Shown: positions 3,345 to 48,557 of the stretch, one piece after another
How the letters are laid out: each line of letters begins with the position of its first letter
How positions within the stretch are numbered: position 1 is the first letter of the stretch
IMG/VR virus record: IMGVR_UViG_3300033121_001334
Span: 1 to 64,000 of that record
Strand: one strand, 5' to 3'
Source: a virus
Taxonomy: Duplodnaviria; Caudoviricetes
Length of the DNA stretch: 64,000 bases
The notes under the pieces: model-generated
Database searches by the model: none
What the model was told of the DNA's origin: nothing
The model's input: the letters and a program-made list of their open reading frames with translations, nothing else
Made by a program: the position numbers and the translations under genes

Positions 3345-3665
3345 TTATGCGATAAATCCATGCTTCTTGGCGAAATCGAGTTGTCTTCCGTACTTCCGTC
3401 CCCGCAGACCGCAAGCCCTCAAATGCTTGCAATCGCCATGCGAGATGCAACCTGGGCAGGAGCAGGACCAGTAGAGAGCGCCAGGAGCCGCATCAAAAGA
3501 AATCTTGTAGATTCTCGTGCTACTTGAACTGGCGACTCCAAAGCCAAACTTGTAGCGGTCAGAGTCAGGGTAGGTCTGGACCGCATTGCTAGGGGCTTGG
3601 GGCCTCGGAGCCTTGACGATGGCTGCGCTACGTTGGATTTGTCCCTTTGCCATAACTTTCCCCAT
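3345..3665 (-). CDS. SWIM zinc-finger protein
   Basis: YWSCSCPGCISHGDCKHL matches the CxC-x(n)-CxH SWIM pattern. Confidence 0.75.
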   Translation of the reverse strand: MGKVMAKGQIQRSAAIVKAPRPQAPSNAVQTYPDSDRYKFGFGVASSSSTRIYKISFDAAPGALYWSCSCPGCISHGDCKHLRACGLRGRKYGRQLDFAKKHGFIA

Positions 3666-3677
3666 TGCGCAGAAAGT

Positions 3678-3968
3678 TTAGTCCGCAGTCGGGTAAATCT
3701 CGCCGACCTTGACTCTCCACTTCTTCTTGAAGGGAGCCTTGGCGATCAAGCCCTTGACTGCTTCTGCGTCCTTACGAGAGCGGTAGTAGAAGACCAAATC
3801 CCTGCGACCAAAGCCGCACCCGCTACCTCCGTCCCTCTTCTTGAGGTACTTCGGAATGACCTTCTCAGGCCCCTTAGGGTCTTCGATGTCAAATTCAAAG
3901 TAGAACTCGGCATTGTAAGAAACCTCAACCGAATATTCAGTCCTTTGCTTGGTGATCTTCTTTGCCAT
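3678..3968 (-). CDS. hypothetical protein
   Basis: 96 aa ORF between two motif copies. Confidence 0.7.
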   Translation of the reverse strand: MAKKITKQRTEYSVEVSYNAEFYFEFDIEDPKGPEKVIPKYLKKRDGGSGCGFGRRDLVFYYRSRKDAEAVKGLIAKAPFKKKWRVKVGEIYPTAD

Positions 3969-4001
3969 GTTCTTTTCTTTCTCGCAGAAAGTTTAGTTCA
4001 A

Positions 4002-4040
4002 TGACCCCGCTGGGACTCGAACCCAGGACCAACGGATTAA
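4002..4040 (-). pseudogene. 3' half of a split tRNA-Lys
   Basis: TTAATCCGTTGGTCCTGGGTTCGAGTCCCAGCGGGGTCA: intact T arm; acceptor strand pairs with the 5' half at 4814-4847. Confidence 0.8.
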
Positions 4041-4249
4041 TGCAAAAGAAGAGCAGACAAGACGATATTGACGATGAATCCAACAAAAGCAACAATAACT
4101 GCTTGCTTGCCTCTCTTTCCTTTATTGCTCCAATCTATTGCTCCAAGTAAAAGAGCAACAAGAACGCAAACAGGAAAAATAAAGGTTCCTATTGCAAAAC
4201 CCATTGCAATCTGTCCCAAAATTGTTGGCCTGCTTTGCTGATTGTTCAT
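4037..4249 (-). CDS. small membrane protein (cassette cargo)
   Basis: 70 aa, two hydrophobic helices; its TAA stop lies in the anticodon loop of the tRNA 3' half. Confidence 0.7.
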   Translation of the reverse strand: MNNQQSRPTILGQIAMGFAIGTFIFPVCVLVALLLGAIDWSNKGKRGKQAVIVAFVGFIVNIVLSALLLH

Positions 4250-4686
4250 ATTTGCTCCAACCTTTCCTTCGTGAGAACAAAGTCATCGTGGAAGTTTAGT
4301 CCCTTGGTTTGACCGTTCCTGGTCTTCTCTTTCCTGACCGCCCAACTTCTTGTTCCTACAAAATGTTCTGGTTTGAGTAGGTACATATCCCCTGATTCAT
4401 GATCATAGCAGACAATCAAGTCACAGTCTTTTTCTGTGTATCCTTTGCTTGTGCCCTTATACCAATTAGTTGTTCTTAAGGAAAATTCTCTTGCGCCAGA
4501 AGAATTTATTCGTTCGCTCGATTTGACTTGAACTTTCTTGAGTTTGCCGTCTATTACGGCAACAAAGTCAAATGGCAGATTGTCGCTTAAGGGCGCAAGG
4601 ACCGGAATATCGAACTTCGCAAACTCCCCCATTACTATTAATTGAGCTTTTTCGCCTTTACCTTTTGGATTCATATACACCTCCAA
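4246..4686 (-). CDS. PD-(D/E)XK endonuclease (free-standing, homing-type)
   Basis: PFDFVAV...KKVQVKS motif, DCDLIVCY; lies within tRNA remnants. Confidence 0.8.
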   Translation of the reverse strand: MEVYMNPKGKGEKAQLIVMGEFAKFDIPVLAPLSDNLPFDFVAVIDGKLKKVQVKSSERINSSGAREFSLRTTNWYKGTSKGYTEKDCDLIVCYDHESGDMYLLKPEHFVGTRSWAVRKEKTRNGQTKGLNFHDDFVLTKERLEQI

Positions 4687-4730
4687 ACATCTATTTCGTA
4701 GGTGTATATAAAACTCCTTCTTTTATTGAA

Positions 4731-4803
4731 TGCCCCCTGCTGGATTCGAACCAGCGGCCACTCGCTTAAAAGGCGAATGCTCTAACCACTGAGCTAAGAG
4801 GGC
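4731..4803 (-). tRNA. tRNA-Lys(TTT)
   Basis: GCCCTCTTAGCTCAGTGGTTAGAGCATTCGCCTTTTAAGCGAGTGGCCGCTGGTTCGAATCCAGCAGGGGGCA; cloverleaf, no encoded CCA. Confidence 0.92.
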
Positions 4804-4813
4804 GATATTTTTC

Positions 4814-4847
4814 AAGTCCGACGCTCTACCAACTGAGCTACGGGATC
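4814..4847 (-). pseudogene. 5' half of a split tRNA (Lys-type)
   Basis: GATCCCGTAGCTCAGTTGGTAGAGCGTCGGACTT, ends in the anticodon loop. Confidence 0.8.
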
Positions 4848-4957
4848 GTACCATGACGAGAAGGGCAGGGGCGGCCTCTCGTAATCCTCAGACTATCCCC
4901 ATCAGCAGACTGAGGGATTTAACAGTCACCGTCATGGATTTTAGTTGTCAGGAAAGT

Positions 4958-5632
4958 TTAGTCCTGAGGCTTCTTATTCTTGGTATGCGGAGATTCTCTT
5001 TCTTCCACCTTGCTAAAAGCCTCTTTTGTTTCCGGGCTAGTCTGCTGTCCCAAAATCTCAAGAGCCTCGATCACAGACATCCCGCTTTGCTCGTCCAACA
5101 TCTCCTCAATCTTCTCGTTATACATAATCGAAGAAGTATGAGCGGCCTCGGTATCTCCGGCGTTCCAGAGATCCATGATGATGCCTTCATGGGTCAAAAC
5201 AACAATCAGTGTACGGCCTTCTTCCTTGTCCTCGTACTCAACCCTCATGTCGTTGCCGACTCGAACGGGAACGTCGTCAACCTTGAAGGTGACGGGCGCA
5301 TGAGAGCGAGGGTCATTGCTTTCTTCCGTCAGGTCCGCAGCGGACTCAGGCTCGCCAGCGGTGTAGCGGCTGATTTGTTTCATTGCAGCCAAAAGTTGAG
5401 CCTTCGCCTCTTCTTCCTTTCGACCAGTCTTGATAAAAGAACCGGCGTACTTAAGAGCGTTGTAGATGCTTTGCAAATCGGCTTGAAGGGCAAGAATCTT
5501 GCCGTTCATAACCTTGCTAACGGCATTCATAACCGCATCTTGCTGGGAAAGAGAAAAGCCTTCTCCATTGCCCATGTCGTTGAGGCGACTGGCGGCGTCT
5601 TGGAGAATCTCTTGGGCAAGGTTGTTGTTCAT
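4958..5632 (-). CDS. hypothetical protein
   Basis: 224 aa; its TAA stop is the TAA of a motif copy. Confidence 0.75.
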   Translation of the reverse strand: MNNNLAQEILQDAASRLNDMGNGEGFSLSQQDAVMNAVSKVMNGKILALQADLQSIYNALKYAGSFIKTGRKEEEAKAQLLAAMKQISRYTAGEPESAADLTEESNDPRSHAPVTFKVDDVPVRVGNDMRVEYEDKEEGRTLIVVLTHEGIIMDLWNAGDTEAAHTSSIMYNEKIEEMLDEQSGMSVIEALEILGQQTSPETKEAFSKVEERESPHTKNKKPQD

Positions 5633-5670
5633 GCTCTTTCCTTCGGCGCGGAAAGTTTAGTTACGGCTTC

Positions 5671-8775: not shown

Positions 8776-8845
8776 AAACCCTTGGTAGGATTCGAACCTA
8801 CTGGACTCCGTATGAAACCGGAGCGCTCACCAGAGCAGCAAGGTT
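8776..8845 (-). pseudogene. atypical tRNA-like element (8-nt anticodon loop GTTTCATA)
   Basis: Good T arm GTAGG-TTCGAAT-CCTAC, stem CTCCG/CGGAG, 4-nt D loop, imperfect acceptor. Confidence 0.6.
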
Positions 8846-8919
8846 TAACCTTTTCCCAGGATGATCAGTCCCAGTACGCAAGGTTGGCCGTTATATTATA
8901 GAGGAGGCCAAACCTCTAA

Positions 8920-11798: not shown

Positions 11799-12085
11799 TG
11801 GGCAAACCGGGATTCGAACCCAGAACCTAGCGATTATGCCTACTGACTTGAGTTTCCCCAAGAGTCGGACTGTACCTTCACCCGTTTCACTTCCTTACGG
11901 AAGAAAAGTTAGGGTGGCTGCCGTCCAGTCTCTACACCTTCGCTTTTCAGCGCTTGGCTCGGGATTGGCGTGAGTCTTTCGACCTTTAGCTTTCCCCGAC
12001 TTTGACAGCTTACTCATACAACATTCCTATTGTATGGACCCAAGTTTTCTTAAGTCGCTTGCTCTAACCGTTGAGCTATTTGCCC
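11799..12085 (-). tRNA. tRNA(CAT), probably Ile2, interrupted by a group I intron
   Basis: Exons 12053-12085 and 11799-11838 join to GCGA-CT-CAT-AA-TCGC; anticodon arm resembles enterobacterial ileX. Confidence 0.88.
11839..12052 (-). mobile_element. group I intron (214 nt, no ORF) after U33
   Basis: P1 GACU/UAAG-AAAA-CUUG/GGUC with U-G at the splice site; R GTAGAGACTG; S AAGGTACAGTCC; terminal G. Confidence 0.9.
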
Positions 12086-13708: not shown

Positions 13709-13742
13709 GCTTTTCTTTTTCCGCGAAAAGTTTAGTTCTAAA

Positions 13743-13780
13743 TTGGAGCGACAGGAATCGAACCTGTCATCCTCTGTTTT
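13743..13780 (-). pseudogene. orphan tRNA 3' half (isotype undetermined)
   Basis: AAAACAGAGGATGACAGGTTCGATTCCTGTCGCTCCAA; intact T arm. Confidence 0.7.
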
Positions 13781-14318
13781 CTGAAACTGCTTTACAAAAA
13801 ACAATCAATTCATCATCAGAGTATCTGTTTTTGGCAAGGTTAGCCATAACTGATACAAACTGAACATTTCCTTTAACATATCCTAAAGAATTGTCTATTC
13901 TATCTAAACTTGCACCATTTATAGGTTGTTTACCAATCCAGCCGTTAGTGTTTTGAGGAAGAACAAGATCCCAACCTGTATAAGGACATTTGCCTTTTTG
14001 CTTTTCCCATAAAAAACGAATATATTCTAGGTCTATATCAACTTCTTTATTTGTTCTGGTTTTAGATACACTTCTTGTTTTTAGGACTGTTGAAAACCAT
14101 CGAAAAGGAGTTAATTCATCTCTTTGATTTCCAGATTCTTTTTTTATGTTTGGATTGCCCTTTCTTGGATTAGCCTTATTACCAATAAGGCAAGCACAAG
14201 ATCTAGAGCAACAATGTTTATATCCTCTTTTTTGCGCAAGGTTGTATTGAGAAATTGTTTTATGAAACCTTTTTCTACATTCTTGGTTTTCACATTCAAC
14301 TTCAATCAAGGTCTTCAT
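13767..14318 (-). CDS. HNH-family endonuclease
   Basis: GKCPYTG...SLDRIDNSLGYVKGNVQFVSVMANLAKN; ORF ends inside the tRNA 3' half. Confidence 0.85.
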   Translation of the reverse strand: MKTLIEVECENQECRKRFHKTISQYNLAQKRGYKHCCSRSCACLIGNKANPRKGNPNIKKESGNQRDELTPFRWFSTVLKTRSVSKTRTNKEVDIDLEYIRFLWEKQKGKCPYTGWDLVLPQNTNGWIGKQPINGASLDRIDNSLGYVKGNVQFVSVMANLAKNRYSDDELIVFCKAVSENRG

Positions 14319-14675: not shown

Positions 14676-14704
14676 TAGGCACAGCCGGACTCGAACCGAC
14701 AAGC
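14676..14704 (-). pseudogene. 3' remnant (T arm + acceptor strand) of split tRNA-Val
   Basis: GTCGG-TTCGAGT-CCGGC-TGTGCCT-A; pairs with GGGCGCA at 15411-15417. Confidence 0.7.
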
Positions 14705-14875
14705 TTACTTCTTTTCAAGTTCCTCAATACGTTTTTCAAGAGATTCAACATACTTCATAAGAGGTTCAAATGCTCTTGAAAGTCGGTTTAATCTGTCTCT
14801 TAGATTGCCACCAGAAGGAATCGCATTATCTGTTCTGGTTAGACTATCAATTTCTTTTTTAATATCAGAATTCAT
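14705..14875 (-). CDS. small coiled-coil protein (cassette cargo; start MNSDI)
   Basis: 56 aa, GGAGG SD just after tRNA-Val. Confidence 0.6.
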   Translation of the reverse strand: MNSDIKKEIDSLTRTDNAIPSGGNLRDRLNRLSRAFEPLMKYVESLEKRIEELEKK

Positions 14876-14886
14876 TTTTCCTCCAA

Positions 14887-14961
14887 TAGGCCCTCGGGGT
14901 GACGATCCCCGTACCTCTTCGGTGTAAACGAAGCGCTCTAGCCAGCGTGAGCTAAGGGCCT
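14887..14961 (-). tRNA. tRNA-Val(TAC), non-canonical T loop
   Basis: AGGCCCTTAGCTCACGCTGGCTAGAGCGCTTCGTTTACACCGAAGAGGTACGGGGATCGTCACCCCGAGGGCCTA. Confidence 0.8.
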
Positions 14962-15374
14962 GTATGTCGCTCCTGGTAGTGGAGCTTAGCATGGCAATTC
15001 CTGCAAAGAACCATGCATTTTTCTATCTCTTTCATAATGCGTTCTAGGCTCATGCCTTTACGAACCATTATGCTAACTTCAATTTCTTTTTCCTGCGGAT
15101 CTCTGTGATGAAAGTCAAGACAAGCAATATGTGATTCTCGACAAACTTCACAAGGATGATTTTTCCTGTAATCGTTTAGAAACTCCCTGTTTCTTTCAAT
15201 AATCTTTTTGCGCCAGATTTTTGCATCTTTTTTCTTTTGGGCTGCATTTTCTGGATTTTGATACCACTTCTTATTGTATTCGCTATGGTAAGCGAGTTTC
15301 TTTTCTCTTTCTTTTTGAGGCATAACAGGTTCTCCTGTTATACCTATTCGACTACTTCTTTTACACTCCTTCAA
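14952..15374 (-). CDS. HNH endonuclease
   Basis: CEVC...CLDFHHRDP...KCMVLCRNCHAKLH; last codons overlap the tRNA-Val 5' end. Confidence 0.88.
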   Translation of the reverse strand: MKECKRSSRIGITGEPVMPQKEREKKLAYHSEYNKKWYQNPENAAQKKKDAKIWRKKIIERNREFLNDYRKNHPCEVCRESHIACLDFHHRDPQEKEIEVSIMVRKGMSLERIMKEIEKCMVLCRNCHAKLHYQERHTGP

Positions 15375-15377
15375 TTT

Positions 15378-15417
15378 CCGTGTAAAGGTGGCACTCTAGC
15401 CATTGAGTTATGCGCCC
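15378..15417 (-). pseudogene. 5' half of split tRNA-Val(TAC)
   Basis: GGGCGCATAACTCAATGGCTAGAGTGCCACCTTTACACGG, truncated after the anticodon loop. Confidence 0.8.
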
Positions 15418-16743: not shown

Positions 16744-17142
16744 TTATTGCGAAACTTTTCCGTAAATTTCTGCGCTTTCAATCGTGCCTGTTGGAATAGT
16801 AATCAAAGATCTAAAACTGGGCTCTTTGTTTCCAGCTTCAAACATTGAGTCAACTCCAATAGTAACAAATTCTTTTTTTTCGCCTATAAAAGCAACAAAA
16901 CCGGAAGTGCAAACCTTGCTTGGCCCGTCAGGAACTTCGCCAGGCTTGAGTACAGAATCCGGATCGAATACTGCGCCCTTCCAAATAACCTGAACTATAT
17001 TCCCAATTTCAGCCTTGGCAAAAAACTCTTCAGAGTTCATAAACTTCTCCTTTACTATCATGTCTATCGACAAGAGAGTATTACAAGGAGAAAATCCAGA
17101 ATCCTCTTCAGTTCTGACTATTGAATTTACGAATCGCGCCAA
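16744..17142 (-). CDS. hypothetical protein (start probably further downstream)
   Basis: ORF track; Sm/SH3-like beta-rich segment. Confidence 0.55.
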   Translation of the reverse strand: MARFVNSIVRTEEDSGFSPCNTLLSIDMIVKEKFMNSEEFFAKAEIGNIVQVIWKGAVFDPDSVLKPGEVPDGPSKVCTSGFVAFIGEKKEFVTIGVDSMFEAGNKEPSFRSLITIPTGTIESAEIYGKVSQ

Positions 17143-17524
17143 TCAGTGTAGCGACTTCGATTTTCCAAAGCTCAGGAAACCTGACATTCTCTGGCATCCA
17201 AACATCAAAATGAACGTCCAGAATAGACTTGATATTTGCTCTACCAGCAGGATTCAAGCTATGAACAACAACAATCTTACCATGATGCTGCGTCATGTCT
17301 TTCAAGTGACGAGCAACAAAACGACCGTCCTCATGATCGTCTTTGGTAACATGATAATGCTCTTCTTCGAGATCGTGATCCAAATAGATCACATCATACT
17401 CGTTCTTTTTCAACAAGTCGATTGCTTCTTGCGCAGTGATAGCAAAGTCAACAACGCAGCCAATAGCTTTCTGTTGAAAGACATCTCGCCTGCTCTTCAT
17501 GTCGTCAAGGAACAAGATCCTCAT
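17108..17524 (-). CDS. cyclic-phosphate-processing receiver-domain protein
   Basis: MRILFLDD...EAIDLL...DVIYLDHDL...VVVHSLNPAG pattern. Confidence 0.7.
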   Translation of the reverse strand: MRILFLDDMKSRRDVFQQKAIGCVVDFAITAQEAIDLLKKNEYDVIYLDHDLEEEHYHVTKDDHEDGRFVARHLKDMTQHHGKIVVVHSLNPAGRANIKSILDVHFDVWMPENVRFPELWKIEVATLIGAIRKFNSQN

Positions 17525-17528
17525 TGAA

Positions 17529-17617
17529 TGCGGCAGGCGGGCGATAAACCCGCTTGCCCCTTTAGATTGCGTTTTCAAAATGCAACCAGCGCCTACCAAA
17601 CGTACAGGGCCTGCCGC
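17529..17617 (-). pseudogene. tRNA-like cloverleaf (Ser TGA-like, non-canonical T loop)
   Basis: 7-bp acceptor GCGGCAG/CTGCCGC + A; T-like arm GCGGG-TTTATCG-CCCGC; loop TTTGAAA. Confidence 0.5.
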
Positions 17618-18912: not shown

Positions 18913-18963
18913 TGGCCCCGATGGGATTCGAACCCCTACGCCTTTTTACGGGCTACGGATTTT
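18913..18963 (-). pseudogene. 3' half of split tRNA-Leu
   Basis: AAAATCCGTAGCCCGTAAAAAGGCGTAGGGGTTCGAATCCCATCGGGGCCA; long variable arm; pairs with GGCCCTG at 20026-20032. Confidence 0.82.
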
Positions 18964-19423
18964 TCACATTTCTTCCTCTCCAAGTTGGAGTCAATGCGTG
19001 GCAGTTGCAACACAAAAGTTCTAGATTTTCTTTTCGGTTATCAGTTCTATCACCATTTTTGTGTTCAATTTCTAAAGGAGCGATCTCTCCTTGCCATTCT
19101 GTTATTTTACACTTTTCACATTGATGACCTCGTTCCGAAATCAAATGTGGTTTTAAAGAAGAAAGCTTATTGTATTCTGACCAGTCTTTTAATCTTTTCC
19201 CAACGTTCCAAGCACTACCAGTCCAATGAGAACAATCCAGATTTAGCCTCTGGAGTGTTTTTCTCATATTGTTGTAGTTGCCACCTGCAACTCTGAGATC
19301 AAGGGCCTTCAAAAGCTCTGCCATCGAGTTGACTTCTTTACACTTTTGAATAATTTGTTCATCGGTGTAGCTTCTGTATTTTCTTGCCATAATCCACCTC
19401 CATAGATGGATTACAATTGGCAA
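18953..19423 (-). CDS. HNH endonuclease
   Basis: CEKC...LEIEHKNGDRTDNRKENLELLCCNCH; ORF ends in the tRNA 3' half. Confidence 0.9.
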   Translation of the reverse strand: MPIVIHLWRWIMARKYRSYTDEQIIQKCKEVNSMAELLKALDLRVAGGNYNNMRKTLQRLNLDCSHWTGSAWNVGKRLKDWSEYNKLSSLKPHLISERGHQCEKCKITEWQGEIAPLEIEHKNGDRTDNRKENLELLCCNCHALTPTWRGRNVKNP

Positions 19424-19456
19424 TCGAATTATCCTTCTTCGTCTACCAATTCCTAA

Positions 19457-19775
19457 TGGACTGACCGGGACTTGAACCCGGATGGTGTTTGAATACCTGC
19501 GGATTTTCTTACCACTTCAGCTTTCGCCGACTGCCCTTTTCCATCAAGGTACTTGGGGTCTTACGTTTGTGGTCTGGACTGTACCTTCATCCGTTCTGCT
19601 TCTTACGAAGAGTTTTGGATGACCCAATTGCAGTCTCTACGGCTTCCTTTGTAGGTTTGCCTCGGAATTGGGATTTTACACCGTTTCCCGATACTCTGGG
19701 TTTCATTTACAAGATTACTCTTGTAACGCTCAAATTGTCTAAGTCCGCTGCGTCTGCCAATTTCGCCATCAGTCC
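19457..19775 (-). tRNA. tRNA-Leu(TAA) with group I intron
   Basis: Exons 19741-19775 and 19457-19507 join to GCGGA-CT-TAA-AA-TCCGC. Confidence 0.9.
19508..19740 (-). mobile_element. group I intron (233 nt, no ORF) between anticodon positions 34 and 35
   Basis: 5' AGACAATTTGAGC recalls the cyanobacterial/plastid trnL intron; R CCGTAGAGACTG; S AAGGTACAGTCC; terminal G. Confidence 0.9.
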
Positions 19776-19782
19776 AATTATT

Positions 19783-19983
19783 CTATTCTTTGCGCGAATA
19801 ATTTTGCACAGACAATTTATCTATTTGTTCTTGTTGAGATTTAATAATACTTAAGATTTTCAAAAAATCTCCAGCCATAACAAAAAAAGTATTATCTCCC
19901 TTAATAGGAAATTTTCCTCCTTTACCAGCTTTATCCATTCTTTCTTTAACGTTTTGAATAAGTTCCTCAATCTCGTTCTTCAT
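19783..19983 (-). CDS. hypothetical protein (cassette cargo)
   Basis: 66 aa, GAAAGGA SD. Confidence 0.65.
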   Translation of the reverse strand: MKNEIEELIQNVKERMDKAGKGGKFPIKGDNTFFVMAGDFLKILSIIKSQQEQIDKLSVQNYSRKE

Positions 19984-19993
19984 ATTTGTCCTT

Positions 19994-20389
19994 TCAAAAA
20001 GTCCGATGCGTCTGCCGTTCCGCCACAGGGCCGATAATCTGAGAAACAGTCATTTTGCGAACAGGTAAAATGTTGTGGTCCAAGAAGTGATTGAGGCAAT
20101 CTTCCACTTCGTCCAAGAAGCTATCGCAGGCGGCAATTCTGTTAGAGGGAAGATCTTCTCTCATTTCAAGAATCGTTCTGTAAATCGAAATCAAGTCAAT
20201 AACTTTGCATTCGATTTTAGATTCTCGCGCAAAAGTAAAAGCGTCCGAAATGAGATCCAAATCGGGCTTTCTTGCGGATTTCAATGATTGAAATGCAGAA
20301 AGAGCTTTTTCTTTGCGAAGCTCGTTCTGGTTTGGAGAGTGAATATCTACTTTAATAGAACGAAAATCAAGAGTATCAAGCATCGTCAT
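19994..20389 (-). CDS. hypothetical protein reading through the tRNA-Leu 5' half
   Basis: 131 aa; C terminus GPVAERQTHRTF is encoded by the tRNA remnant. Confidence 0.6.
   Translation of the reverse strand: MTMLDTLDFRSIKVDIHSPNQNELRKEKALSAFQSLKSARKPDLDLISDAFTFARESKIECKVIDLISIYRTILEMREDLPSNRIAACDSFLDEVEDCLNHFLDHNILPVRKMTVSQIIGPVAERQTHRTF
19999..20032 (-). pseudogene. 5' half of split tRNA-Leu
   Basis: GGCCCTGTGGCGGAACGGCAGACGCATCGGACTT. Confidence 0.82.
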
Positions 20390-47249: not shown

Positions 47250-48557
47250 TTACCCTTTCAAGACAGCAACAGGCAGAAGTTCGATTTGGATATCAACCAA
47301 GTCCTTTTGGTTGTTCATAACAACGTCAATGCTTTTATATGCGCTTCCAAGTTCGTCATGAGCTTCTTGAACTCCATAAAGCTCAACAGAACCAAGCTGC
47401 GAAGCCTGCGAAGGGTCAAGCCCGTCAGCAATACGCTTCTTAGCGGTTGTTCTACTGAAGTTTCGACCCGCACCATGCGAACAAGAGTTGAAGCTGTCTG
47501 GGTTTTCCTTACCCTTTACAATGTAGCTCTTGCTGCACATCGAACCAGGAATAATTCCAACAGTCGTCTTGCGAGCGAGCGTTGCTCCTTTGCGATGAAC
47601 CCATACATTCTCACCATGATGATGTTCAATCGTTGCGTAGTTATGGTGAATGTTGATAATGTCCTTGAGAGCAGCCGTCTGGTGATATTGCTCTCTAACA
47701 GCTTCCTGACAACATATCATCATGAGTTTTCTGTTTACAAGAGCGTAATCTTGCGCAGCCAAAAGGCTTGCAATGTACCATTGTCCTTCGTCAGAATCAG
47801 CGGGCAAGAATGCTAGTTCTTCATTAGGAAGGCGAGTGTAGTATCTCTTGCAGGTCTTGACGGCAAGGTGATGGAACTTCTTGGCAAGCTGAGCGCCAAA
47901 GCCTCTGGAACCGCTATGAAGCATGAACCAGGCGTTGCCTTCTGCGTCTTGCTGAAGCTCAATGAAGTGGTTTCCGCCACCAAGAGTTCCTATTTGTATT
48001 TTTGCTCTGCACCATGCAGGATAATCAAGAGTCTTACAGAATTCTTTTGCTTCCTCAACCTTTTTCTCGACATCAGCAATATGGTCAATAATACGCTTAT
48101 GACCAAGCCAGAGATCGCTTCTAGAGCGGTTTTTACCTTCGCCAACAGGGACATCAGCGGCAATGGCTGTCATGAGCTTCTTGATATCAAGGTCTGCGAC
48201 TTTGATACCTGAATTCCATGCACACATTCCGCACCCGATATCCACCCCGACCGCATTTGGTGAAACGGCATTATGAAGCGGCAGGACGCAGCCGACTGGG
48301 ACTCCAAAACCTGTATGAGCGTCGGGCATGAGCGCAACATGGCGATAGACGCAAGGAAGGCGAGCAGCTTCGCTGACTTGACGAATTGCGCCTTCTTCTA
48401 GGTTGAGGATGGGCTTGCCGGTTTCTGAATCGACATCCTTCGTCCAGCACTTGACAGGAACGCCGCCAGTTTGCTCGGGCGGGATTACGACGGGTCCGAG
48501 TTTTTCTTCAATGGTTGACATGATGTGATTATAGGATAAAAAATGGCACAAAATCAA
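47250..48557 (-). CDS. rtcB: RtcB RNA 3'-phosphate/5'-OH ligase
   Basis: MPDAH, GVDIGCGM, GTLGGGNHFIE, HSGSRG, HHNY, HRKGA, PGSM, SHGAGR. Confidence 0.95.
   Translation of the reverse strand: MILCHFLSYNHIMSTIEEKLGPVVIPPEQTGGVPVKCWTKDVDSETGKPILNLEEGAIRQVSEAARLPCVYRHVALMPDAHTGFGVPVGCVLPLHNAVSPNAVGVDIGCGMCAWNSGIKVADLDIKKLMTAIAADVPVGEGKNRSRSDLWLGHKRIIDHIADVEKKVEEAKEFCKTLDYPAWCRAKIQIGTLGGGNHFIELQQDAEGNAWFMLHSGSRGFGAQLAKKFHHLAVKTCKRYYTRLPNEELAFLPADSDEGQWYIASLLAAQDYALVNRKLMMICCQEAVREQYHQTAALKDIINIHHNYATIEHHHGENVWVHRKGATLARKTTVGIIPGSMCSKSYIVKGKENPDSFNSCSHGAGRNFSRTTAKKRIADGLDPSQASQLGSVELYGVQEAHDELGSAYKSIDVVMNNQKDLVDIQIELLPVAVLKG

What the first reader, a model, noticed from the sequence alone, without database searches (positions are those of the whole stretch)
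4002..4847. tRNA-Lys split by a cassette that carries its own tRNA-Lys
Seen: the 5' half (4814-4847, ends ...GGACTT) and 3' half (4002-4040, begins TTAATCC...) rebuild a cloverleaf with a 7-bp acceptor GATCCCG/CGGGGTC and loop CT-TTT-AA. Between them lie an intact, divergent tRNA-Lys(TTT), a PD-(D/E)XK nuclease and a membrane ORF whose stop is in the old anticodon loop. No group I P7 core is present, so this is not an intron. Inference: an endonuclease-driven allele replacement.
Basis: partly seen in the sequence, partly recalled or inferred. Interest (0 to 1): 0.78.

Follow-up and report, generated by a model that had tools for sequence, protein, structure and literature searches.

The report
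Nuclease cassette carrying spare lysine tRNA
A selfish DNA-cutting-enzyme gene sits in the anticodon loop of a huge phage's lysine tRNA gene and, instead of splicing out like an intron, carries a complete replacement tRNA with a different stem; a near-identical relative still has the unbroken gene, so the invasion can be traced base by base.

Summary
On the minus strand, 4847-4814 and 4040-4002 join into a canonical 73-nt tRNA-Lys(UUU), split between nt 34 and 35 by a 773-nt insert. The insert holds an intact, divergent tRNA-Lys(UUU), a 142-aa I-Ssp6803I-family PD-(D/E)XK nuclease and an orphan 70-aa two-helix membrane ORF that ends in the old loop. No ribozyme is present.

Contig L015 is an empty site with an intact tRNA-Lys. 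It is 100% identical to the window for 1687 nt up to T34, and for 1354 nt from 3853 onward. All differences on the right lie in 3988-3854, and most match a cassette-bearing lineage, as in a one-sided co-conversion tract. A cassette 98% identical sits in a backbone only 80-85% identical.

In nearly every related locus with readable upstream sequence (33-99% protein identity), the nuclease gene directly follows a tRNA-Lys(UUU). Many loci keep orphan halves, some decayed. Old and new tRNAs share the loop but differ in the anticodon stem.

Best reading: intronless homing into an essential RNA gene, with a cleavage-resistant spare. Cleavage itself is untested.

This scan has noted the same design on other DNA. 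Published work records only an "enigmatic" tRNA-in-tRNA intron in Lak megaphages.

The parts
4848..4945 (-). Structured ~100-nt leader just upstream of the tRNA-Lys gene. It is context rather than part of the insert. It travels with the cassette into the L021 backbone.
   Evidence: 100% identical in L015, 98% in L021 and 90% in L007. Consensus fold is a 9-bp closing stem enclosing three hairpins, with one compensatory pair. Only weak sub-threshold Rfam matches (YrlA, 21-23 bits).
4814..4847 (-). Old tRNA-Lys(UUU) 5' half, nt 1-34, native to this backbone.
   Evidence: 34 of 34 identical to the intact tRNA-Lys at L015:2763-2835. The 100% identity with L015 runs 1687 nt and stops exactly at 4814.
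4804..4813 (-). 10-nt spacer (GAAAAATATC), the left end of the insert.
   Evidence: Shared with L021. Absent in L002, where the new tRNA abuts the old half.
4731..4803 (-). Replacement tRNA-Lys(UUU). Same loop CTTTTAA, but anticodon stem TTCGC/GCGAG in place of TCGGA/TCCGT.
   Evidence: ARAGORN. Rfam tRNA 74.2 bits. Identical to the cassette tRNA of L007 and L021.
4674..4708 (-). Hairpin that sequesters the nuclease gene's Shine-Dalgarno sequence (GGAGGTG) and start codon.
   Evidence: 9-bp stem TATACACCT/AGGTGTATA. Conserved across 6 lineages, with compensatory changes in the inner stem. T4 homing endonuclease genes have the same device (PMC2988022).
4246..4674 (-). 142-aa PD-(D/E)XK homing-type endonuclease of the I-Ssp6803I family.
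   Evidence: PF11645, E 1.2e-20. PDB 2OST by sequence, E 6e-7. AlphaFold model pLDDT 88.9; top Foldseek hit 2OST, TM 0.82. E8, Q49 and K51 are invariant and D36 nearly so among 13 homologues.
4037..4249 (-). 70-aa ORF with two predicted membrane helices, probably cargo. Its start overlaps the nuclease stop codon, and its TAA stop is nt 36-38 of the old anticodon loop.
   Evidence: ORF list and sequence. No Pfam or PHROG family. No homologue beyond its own cluster. Present in L021. Other lineages carry nothing or different ORFs at this position.
4002..4040 (-). Old tRNA-Lys 3' half, nt 35-73, of foreign (donor-type) origin.
   Evidence: Differs from L015's own 3' half. Identical from nt 39 to the remnant in L002-L006, and 40 of 41 aligned nt match the intact gene at the start of L014.
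3854..4001 (-). Co-conversion tract: the intergenic region plus the first ~115 nt of the downstream 96-aa gene, carrying donor-type alleles.
   Evidence: In the homologous right flank, all window-versus-L015 mismatches lie in 3988-3854. 16 of the 19 match L002. From 3853 to 2500 there are no mismatches. The protein shows the same mosaic.

Best explanation
This is a mobile 'cut-and-replace' homing cassette.

Proposed mechanism:
1. The 142-aa I-Ssp6803I-type nuclease is inferred to recognise the near-palindromic anticodon stem-loop of a sensitive phage tRNA-Lys(UUU) gene (core CGGACTT/TTAATCCG). It is inferred to cut there when a cassette-bearing phage and a cassette-free phage meet in one cell.
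2. The break is repaired by copying from the cassette-bearing genome. This places the cassette at nt 34/35, destroys the target site and so gives self-immunity.
3. There is no ribozyme to restore the gene. Instead the cassette carries a full tRNA-Lys(UUU) with the same loop but a different, still base-paired anticodon stem. That tRNA supplies the function and is presumed uncuttable.
4. A hairpin over the ribosome-binding site probably limits translation of the nuclease.

Shown here: the anatomy; the nuclease family and fold; the absence of a ribozyme; the empty site; the exact breakpoint; the one-sided conversion tract; lateral spread between backbones; and a tight nuclease/tRNA-Lys linkage down to 33% identity.

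Inferred: the cleavage site, the resistance of the replacement tRNA, and the function of the membrane ORF.
For: Anatomy.

Nuclease: PF11645 E 1e-20; 2OST by sequence and by fold, TM 0.82; catalytic residues conserved.

Empty site: L015-L020 carry an intact tRNA-Lys between the same 224-aa and 96-aa genes.

Breakpoints: the window equals L015 at 100% over 1687 nt, ending exactly at T34. The right flank is 98.7% identical, with every mismatch inside 3988-3854 and 16 of 19 matching L002, then 1354 nt with none. L015's own 3' half, two small ORFs and an RNA-like stretch (675 nt) are replaced.

Lateral transfer: window 4955-3959 is 98% identical to L021, whose flanks are 80-85% identical or unrelated.

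Recurrence: a tRNA-Lys(TTT) lies directly upstream of the nuclease gene in L002-4, L006-11, L021-28, L031-32, L034-35 and 10 phage contigs scanned from the 33-38% identity group L036-L052, which come from contigs of up to 494 kb.

Orphan pieces: old halves flank the cassette in most lineages. The 5' halves differ between backbones, while one 3' half travels with the cassette.

Stem difference: in all 7 old/new pairs the loop is the same, and the anticodon stem differs at 2 or more of its 5 base pairs.

Regulation: the hairpin over the ribosome-binding site is conserved, as in T4 homing endonuclease genes.

Self-immunity: the window has no site within 3 mismatches of the presumed 15-bp target. 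About 2 would be expected by chance, so this is only weak support.
Against: - No cleavage data exist. The target and the cut position are inferred from the family precedent and from the breakpoint.
- All junctions could be copies of one ancestral insertion, so the shared 34/35 position is not independent evidence of where the enzyme cuts.
- The module shared by the window and L021 ends at a repeated intergenic motif on both sides. Motif-mediated shuffling could produce that without a nuclease.
- L036 has the nuclease but no tRNA, and L022-24 show no old halves.
- L008's replacement tRNA has the same stem as the old tRNA of the window's lineage. Specificities must therefore differ between nuclease lineages, which is untested.
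Confidence: 0.8

Rival explanations
1. The insert is an intervening sequence removed at the RNA level. Either it is an unusual self-splicing intron, or the halves are processed and then rejoined by the phage's own RtcB ligase, so the old tRNA-Lys is still made.
For: The split lies at nt 34/35, the classic position of the tRNA-Leu(UAA) group I intron. This genome has true group I introns in tRNA genes. The contig encodes RtcB (PF01139, E 9e-108). Both halves are complete in the window.
Against: - No ribozyme family matched at E up to 10, although the same tool finds the genome's real introns.
- The insert ends in A rather than G, and holds no guide sequence able to pair with GGACUU. Only 139 nt of it are non-coding, and 73 of those are the tRNA.
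- No bulge-helix-bulge fold forms at the junctions.
- In relatives the 3' part lacks nt 35-38 (L002), lacks the anticodon-stem strand (L025, L008), or is absent (L007).
- The window's two halves come from different alleles and pair imperfectly (U3.G70, U27.U43).
- The halves are intact here because the event is very recent: the flanks are 100% identical to L015.
Confidence: 0.04
2. Ordinary modular recombination between phages, at repeated intergenic motifs or by illegitimate joining, produced the arrangement. The nuclease is a passenger or has another role, and no site-specific cut in the tRNA gene is involved.
For: The motif ACTAAACTTYYYGCG occurs 13 times in the window on one strand, against 0.06 expected. 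It marks both ends of the 1-kb module shared with L021. The window's homology with L015 resumes at this motif.
Against: - The left breakpoint against L015 lies inside the tRNA anticodon loop, not at a motif.
- The nuclease/tRNA-Lys linkage holds from 99% down to 33% protein identity in unrelated phage backbones.
- Orphan tRNA-Lys pieces directly flank the cassette in many lineages.
- The nuclease family's characterised member targets a tRNA gene's anticodon region.
- The catalytic residues are conserved.
Confidence: 0.1
3. The cassette is kept mainly because it benefits the phage. Either the replacement tRNA escapes a host tRNA-Lys anticodon nuclease, or the nuclease cuts host tRNA-Lys genes while the phage supplies its own tRNA. 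Homing is secondary.
For: tRNA-Lys is a classic target of host anticodon nucleases, and phage tRNAs can evade them (PMC10264068, listed). The phage carries RtcB. The old anticodon arm CGGACTTTTAATCCG occurs in at least 120 metagenome contigs that look cellular, so host genes could be cut.
Against: Old and new tRNAs have the same anticodon loop, and the published escape mutations lie in the loop. The selfish signatures explain the spread without any benefit: target-site disruption, a conversion tract, and lateral transfer between backbones. The host is unknown.
Confidence: 0.06

Closest known systems
I-Ssp6803I and the group I intron of the Synechocystis tRNA-fMet gene (PDB 2OST; PMC3384342; Bonocora and Shub 2001 and Zhao et al. 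2007, cited from memory)
   Same: Same Pfam family and fold. It is a small PD-(D/E)XK enzyme. Its gene lies inside a tRNA gene's anticodon loop. Its known target is a pseudo-palindromic site of about 23 bp (PMC3384342); that this site is the anticodon stem-loop is from memory.
   Different: Here there is no intron ribozyme. Function is restored by a second complete tRNA gene rather than by splicing. The setting is phages rather than cyanobacteria, and the target is tRNA-Lys(UUU) rather than tRNA-fMet.
Free-standing homing endonucleases of T-even phages ('intronless homing'), especially SegB in the T4 tRNA cluster (PMC2330249, PMC2988022)
   Same: The nuclease gene is absent from the otherwise homologous locus of close relatives. 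tRNA genes are the target. Neighbouring tRNA genes are co-inherited and flanks are co-converted. A hairpin covers the ribosome-binding site.
   Different: SegB is a GIY-YIG enzyme. It recognises a site that includes the TpsiC stem-loop motif and cuts near the 3' end of tRNA genes. It sits between genes. Here the gene sits inside its presumed target and leaves two halves, and a dedicated same-anticodon replacement is part of the unit.
'Enigmatic' tRNA introns of Lak megaphages, including a tRNA-Thr(TGT) intron that may itself encode a tRNA (PMC6784885)
   Same: A huge phage has a tRNA gene interrupted by a sequence that holds another tRNA. Variants with and without the insert exist, and the insert sequence is conserved across cohorts.
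   Different: That report described the insert as an intron, with no mechanism and no nuclease link. I did not examine those sequences here.
Integrase-borne islands and prophages that insert into tRNA genes
   Same: A tRNA gene is the landing site, and the element restores tRNA function.
   Different: Those elements duplicate only the 3' part of the tRNA as an attachment repeat and need an integrase. Here no integrase or repeat is present, the two halves are complementary parts of one gene, and a whole new tRNA is supplied.
Synthetic 'cleave-and-rescue' and 'home-and-rescue' gene drives (from memory; not checked in papers)
   Same: The logic is the same: a nuclease targets an essential gene, linked to a recoded, cleavage-resistant rescue copy.
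   Different: Those are engineered Cas9 systems in animals. This is a natural protein-guided element in phages.

Membership tests
PDDEXK_5 / I-Ssp6803I homing endonuclease family | Match to Pfam PF11645 above the curated cut-off | tested here: met
   74.4 bits against a cut-off of 26.1, E 1.2e-20, covering profile positions 1-136 of 138.
PDDEXK_5 / I-Ssp6803I homing endonuclease family | Restriction-endonuclease-like fold matching I-Ssp6803I | tested here: met
   Model pLDDT 88.9. The top four Foldseek PDB hits are the 2OST chains, TM up to 0.82, E 2e-10.
PDDEXK_5 / I-Ssp6803I homing endonuclease family | Catalytic acidic residues and the Q-x-K motif conserved | tested here: met
   E8, Q49, V50 and K51 are invariant and D36 is at least 90% conserved in 13 homologues. 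They align to the D...QVK stretch of 2OST. The catalytic roles are taken from memory of Zhao et al. 2007.
PDDEXK_5 / I-Ssp6803I homing endonuclease family | Site-specific cleavage of the uninterrupted tRNA gene around the insertion point | not testable with these tools
   Needs an enzyme assay.
Group I intron | Conserved catalytic core (P3-P9) detectable by a covariance model | tested here: not met
   No RF00028 match at E up to 10 in 3500-5500. Positive controls at 11846-12061 (61 bits) and 19554-19750 (21.8 bits).
Group I intron | Terminal G and an internal guide sequence pairing with the 5' exon | tested here: not met
   The insert ends ...TTTGCA. It has no GAGTC, [GA]AGTCC or GGGTCC motif able to pair with GGACUU.
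Free-standing homing endonuclease (intronless homing, SegB-like) | Endonuclease gene absent from the homologous locus of close relatives | tested here: met
   L015-L020 lack it and carry an intact tRNA-Lys. Their flanks are 100% and 98.7% identical to the window.
Free-standing homing endonuclease (intronless homing, SegB-like) | Co-conversion of flanking markers | tested here: met
   Donor-type alleles are confined to 3988-3854 on the 3' side and absent on the 5' side.
Free-standing homing endonuclease (intronless homing, SegB-like) | Gene sits between genes, away from its cleavage site | tested here: not met
   Here it lies inside the presumed target gene, flanked by that gene's two halves.
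Integrase-mediated tRNA-targeting island | Integrase gene and a direct repeat of the tRNA 3' end | tested here: not met
   The insert holds only a tRNA, the nuclease and a 70-aa ORF. The flanking pieces are nt 1-34 and 35-73 with no overlap.
Archaeal-type split tRNA or bulge-helix-bulge intron | Bulge-helix-bulge motif at the exon-intron junctions | tested here: not met
   A minimal junction construct folds with no 3-nt bulge / 4-bp helix / 3-nt bulge motif.

The most novel reading that the evidence does not exclude
Homing endonucleases have a third general way, besides introns/inteins and intergenic placement, to live in essential genes. They insert into an RNA gene and bring a re-stemmed, cleavage-resistant spare copy. 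In huge phages this would run as an arms race across tRNA isotypes and nuclease families. The window alone holds Lys (PD-(D/E)XK) and Leu and Val (HNH) cases. One lineage's rescue stem is another lineage's target: L008's new stem equals the window lineage's old stem. This process would continually rewrite phage tRNA arrays and would explain the 'tRNA inside a tRNA intron' reported in megaphages. The nuclease may also cut host-type tRNA-Lys genes.
Probability: 0.45. Interest if true: 0.85.

Novelty: new variant of a known kind. Interest (0 to 1): 0.78.

Why it matters
Homing endonucleases are thought to survive in essential genes only by hiding in self-splicing introns or inteins, or by sitting beside their targets. 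This element shows a different solution: break the gene and deliver a recoded spare. That is the design of engineered cleave-and-rescue gene drives.

The element gives a mechanism for the turnover and diversity of tRNA genes in huge phages, and for their puzzling 'tRNA introns'. It extends the little-studied I-Ssp6803I family to a large phage-borne clade: 726 cluster representatives at E 1e-10 or better.

It also offers a set of natural nuclease and target pairs whose specificity appears to sit in a 5-bp stem. The near-isogenic empty and filled pair found here makes the homing event directly testable.

Tried and rejected
- Group I or II intron, or a small self-cleaving ribozyme: no Rfam match, even at permissive thresholds.
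- Bulge-helix-bulge splicing: no such motif at the junctions.
- Integrase-type insertion: no integrase and no repeat.
- Searches of viral contigs with the exact joined anticodon arm, the upstream 224-aa protein and the downstream 96-aa protein found nothing. The relatives came instead from protein-identity look-ups.
- The phages collection gave only generic tRNA matches.
It gave no extra empty sites, but showed that the arm is common.
- The membrane ORF has no family and no homologue.
- Zhao et al. 2007 and Pope et al. 2014 are not in the held library.
- Literature searches for a split tRNA with a nested replacement and a homing endonuclease found no description, apart from the Lak megaphage note.
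Full report
**Setting.** The window is the first 64 kb of a 74.6-kb IMG/VR viral contig that CheckV rates 15% complete. Two relatives of the nuclease locus lie on phage contigs of 370 and 494 kb. This is therefore a huge phage. Genes run on the minus strand, and the region is rich in tRNA genes (13 by ARAGORN).

**Observation.** Read on the minus strand, the region holds, in order:
- 34 nt of a tRNA 5' half, ending GGACTT (4847-4814);
- a 10-nt spacer;
- a complete tRNA-Lys(TTT) (4803-4731);
- 56 nt that form a hairpin over a GGAGGTG ribosome-binding site;
- a 142-aa ORF (4674-4246);
- a 70-aa ORF overlapping it by ATGA (4249-4037);
- 39 nt of a tRNA 3' half, beginning TTAATCC (4040-4002).

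Joined in silico, the two halves give a 73-nt tRNA-Lys(ttt) that ARAGORN accepts. The small ORF's TAA stop is nt 36-38 of the old loop.

**What the parts are.** The 142-aa protein matches Pfam PDDEXK_5 (E 1.2e-20). It matches the crystal structure of I-Ssp6803I (2OST) by sequence (E 6e-7). A confident model (pLDDT 88.9) has the 2OST chains as its four best PDB matches (TM up to 0.82). E8, Q49 and K51 are invariant and D36 nearly so across 13 homologues, so the enzyme is probably active.

I-Ssp6803I is a tetrameric homing endonuclease that reads a pseudo-palindromic 23-bp site (PMC3384342). From memory, that site is the anticodon stem-loop of the tRNA-fMet gene, whose group I intron encodes the enzyme.

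The 70-aa ORF has two hydrophobic segments, no family and no homologue outside its own cluster.

**Not an intron.** A permissive Rfam scan of 3500-5500 (E up to 10) finds only the nested tRNA and noise. The same tool finds a bona fide group I intron in a tRNA(CAT) gene at 11846-12061 (61 bits). In a comparably narrow search it also finds a weaker one in a tRNA-Leu(UAA) gene (E 0.0055). The insert ends in A, has no guide sequence for GGACUU, and has only 139 non-coding nt, of which 73 are the tRNA. The junctions form no bulge-helix-bulge.

**The empty site.** Exact-protein look-ups of the downstream 96-aa gene led to L015-L020, six JGI contigs. There the same 224-aa and 96-aa genes flank an intact tRNA-Lys(TTT) (70.6 bits).
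- Window 6500-4814 equals L015 1110-2796 at 100% over 1687 nt. The identity stops exactly at T34.
- Homology resumes at 3997. All 19 mismatches in that homologous flank lie in 3988-3854, and at 16 of them the window carries the L002 allele. From 3853 to 2500 there are none. The 96-aa protein shows the same mosaic.
- L015's own 3' half, a 55-aa ORF, an RNA-like stretch and a 72-aa ORF (675 nt) are replaced by the 773-nt insert plus a foreign 3' half.
- L015's acceptor stem pairs perfectly (GATCCCG/CGGGATC), whereas the window's chimeric pair has U3.G70. The intact state is therefore ancestral.
- The foreign 3' half has an uninterrupted counterpart at the start of L014, where 40 of 41 aligned nt match and the loop is contiguous.

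This is the pattern expected from repair of a double-strand break in the anticodon loop, copied from a cassette-bearing donor. Nothing is converted on the 5' side. On the 3' side, conversion runs to the first long homology.

**Lateral spread.** L021 carries a module 98% identical over 997 nt (window 4955-3959). It comprises the leader, both halves, the cassette and the membrane ORF, in a backbone that is otherwise 80-85% identical or unrelated. The ends of that module coincide with a repeated intergenic motif: 13 copies in the window, 0.06 expected. Motif-mediated exchange may therefore contribute to this transfer.

**Recurrence.** Homologues of the nuclease at 33-99% identity were examined on their contigs.
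- A tRNA-Lys(TTT) lies directly upstream wherever upstream sequence exists. The exceptions are L036 (no tRNA) and L030, where an HNH gene and a tRNA-Lys remnant intervene and an intact tRNA-Lys lies just beyond.
- Old 5' halves ending CTT, followed by the cassette, occur in L002-6, L021, L025-28 and L034-35. L007 and L031 break one or two nt later, and L008-11 break after the loop.
- The 3' parts are variably decayed. L002 lacks nt 35-38, L025 and L008 lack the anticodon-stem strand, and L007 has none.
- The 5' halves differ between backbones (GATCCCG, GACCTCG, GACTCCG, GACTCGG, GACTTGG). One 3' half (acceptor strand CGGGGTC) is shared by the window, L021 and L002-6. This fits a native 5' half and a 3' half that travels with the cassette.
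- Cargo between the nuclease gene and the 3' half varies: none, the 70-aa ORF, an ORF extending more than 190 codons (L034), or two ORFs.
- The more distant homologues (33-38%) sit free-standing after tRNA-Lys inside tRNA arrays, in the manner of SegB.
- A profile search finds 726 cluster representatives at E 1e-10 or better.

**Immunity by re-stemming (inferred).** In seven old/new pairs the loop is always CTTTTAA, while the anticodon stem differs at 2 or more of its 5 base pairs. Examples are TCGGA/TCCGT against TTCGC/GCGAG here, and ACGGA/TCCGT against GTGGA/TCCAT in L002. A stem can be rewritten with compensating changes without harming the tRNA. This would be the RNA-gene equivalent of synonymous recoding. 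L008's rescue stem (ACGGA/TCCGT) equals the old stem of L002, L007 and L031, so the nuclease lineages must differ in specificity and could prey on each other's spares. The window holds no site within three mismatches of the presumed 15-bp target (weak, since about 2 are expected by chance).

**Regulation.** The hairpin over the ribosome-binding site is conserved in six lineages, with compensatory changes. The same device limits translation of T4 homing endonucleases, including segB (PMC2988022).

**Rivals.**
- RNA-level rejoining is made attractive by a phage RtcB gene. It is contradicted by the missing ribozyme and by the decay or loss of 3' halves in relatives. The halves look perfect here only because the event is recent.
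- Nuclease-independent shuffling cannot explain a breakpoint inside the anticodon loop, nor the deep linkage of this nuclease clade to tRNA-Lys.
- An adaptive role is possible as an addition but is not needed. Options are escape from host anticodon nucleases, or attack on host tRNA-Lys genes, whose anticodon arm is the same. The unchanged loop argues against escape.

**Known relatives of the idea.** tRNA genes are established targets of phage homing endonucleases (SegB: PMC2330249). HNH genes in mycobacteriophage tRNA arrays have been linked to tRNA diversity (PMC5966550). Lak megaphages were reported to have 'enigmatic' tRNA introns, one of which may encode a tRNA, with intron-less variants (PMC6784885). 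I found no paper that describes a nuclease cassette carrying a whole replacement tRNA.

**Earlier notes of this scan.** The scan describes the same design on other DNA. This includes the same nuclease family in another huge phage (e1-5466599, e1-5466613) and other isotypes and nuclease families in phages, CPR bacteria and archaea. I did not test those notes. What this window adds is a near-isogenic empty and filled pair, with an exact breakpoint and a one-sided conversion tract.

**Same architecture elsewhere in the window (partly checked).**
- An old tRNA-Leu is split at 34/35 (20032-19999 and 18964-18913). The insert holds a small ORF, a complete tRNA-Leu(UAA) that itself contains a probable group I intron, and an HNH gene.
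- An old tRNA-Val(TAC) (15417-15380 and 14700-14676) encloses an HNH gene, a new tRNA-Val(TAC) and a small ORF.
- A further HNH-like gene ends against an orphan T arm at 13767-13743.

**Verdict.** It is a new variant of intronless homing that uses the I-Ssp6803I family without its intron. Confidence is 0.8, and the cleavage specificity remains to be shown.

Noticed in passing
window 18913-20032 (-): Second cut-and-replace cassette. An old tRNA-Leu 5' half (20032-19999, ends ATCGGACTT) and 3' half (18964-18913) enclose a small ORF, a complete tRNA-Leu(UAA) (19775-19457) and an HNH endonuclease gene (19390-18953; phrog_10822, E 8e-33). The HNH stop codon lies in the old 3' half.
   Followed up: partly
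window 19508-19740 (-): The replacement tRNA-Leu(UAA) itself holds a 233-nt probable group I intron between nt 34 and 35, the classic tRNA-Leu(UAA) intron position. Rfam RF00028 gives 21.8 bits (E 0.0055), below the gathering score.
   Followed up: partly
window 14676-15417 (-): Third cassette. An old tRNA-Val(TAC) 5' part through the anticodon loop (15417-15380), an HNH gene (15374-14952; phrog_2255, E 5e-26), a new tRNA-Val(TAC) (14961-14887), a 57-aa ORF, and the old T arm plus acceptor (14700-14676).
   Followed up: partly
window 13743-14318 (-): An HNH-like endonuclease ORF (14318-13767; phrog_3322, E 1e-23) ends directly against an orphan tRNA T arm plus acceptor strand (13767-13743). 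No matching 5' half was identified.
   Followed up: no
window 11846-12061 (-): A true group I intron (Rfam 61.2 bits, above the gathering score) in a tRNA(CAT) gene. It served here as the positive control for intron detection.
   Followed up: partly
window 47253-48380 (-) and 17108-17599 (-): The phage encodes an RtcB RNA ligase (PF01139, E 9e-108) and a cREC_REC cyclic-phosphate-processing receiver domain protein (E 4e-15). This suggests a tRNA or RNA repair module.
   Followed up: no
window 4848-4945 (-); L015:2660-2760; L007:2474-2570: A conserved ~100-nt structured leader lies directly upstream of tRNA-Lys: a 9-bp closing stem around three hairpins, with one compensatory pair. Only weak sub-threshold YrlA-like Rfam matches. 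Function unknown.
   Followed up: partly
window, 13 sites on the minus strand (e.g. 3983-3997, 3668-3682, 5647-5661, 13722-13736): The intergenic motif ACTAAACTTYYYGCG recurs 13 times (0.06 expected), usually about 15-20 nt before an ATG. It is probably a phage promoter or regulatory box. It also marks the ends of the module shared with L021.
   Followed up: partly
L015:3040-3230 and L007:4090-4290: An ORF-free, apparently structured ~190-nt stretch lies between small ORFs downstream of the intact tRNA-Lys. It was lost from the window when the cassette arrived. No Rfam family matched.
   Followed up: no
window 8776-8846 (-): ARAGORN reports a tRNA-like gene with a four-base anticodon (ttca), next to tRNA-Met. 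It may be a frameshift-suppressor-like tRNA or a miscall.
   Followed up: no
The nuclease's presumed target may therefore also exist in host chromosomes.
   Followed up: partly
L030:1725-3000: This locus looks like a graveyard of successive invasions. In order it holds an intact tRNA-Lys, an HNH-motif ORF, a tRNA-Lys 3' remnant that includes the anticodon loop, the PDDEXK_5 nuclease gene, and a second orphan T arm plus acceptor with CCA.
   Followed up: no
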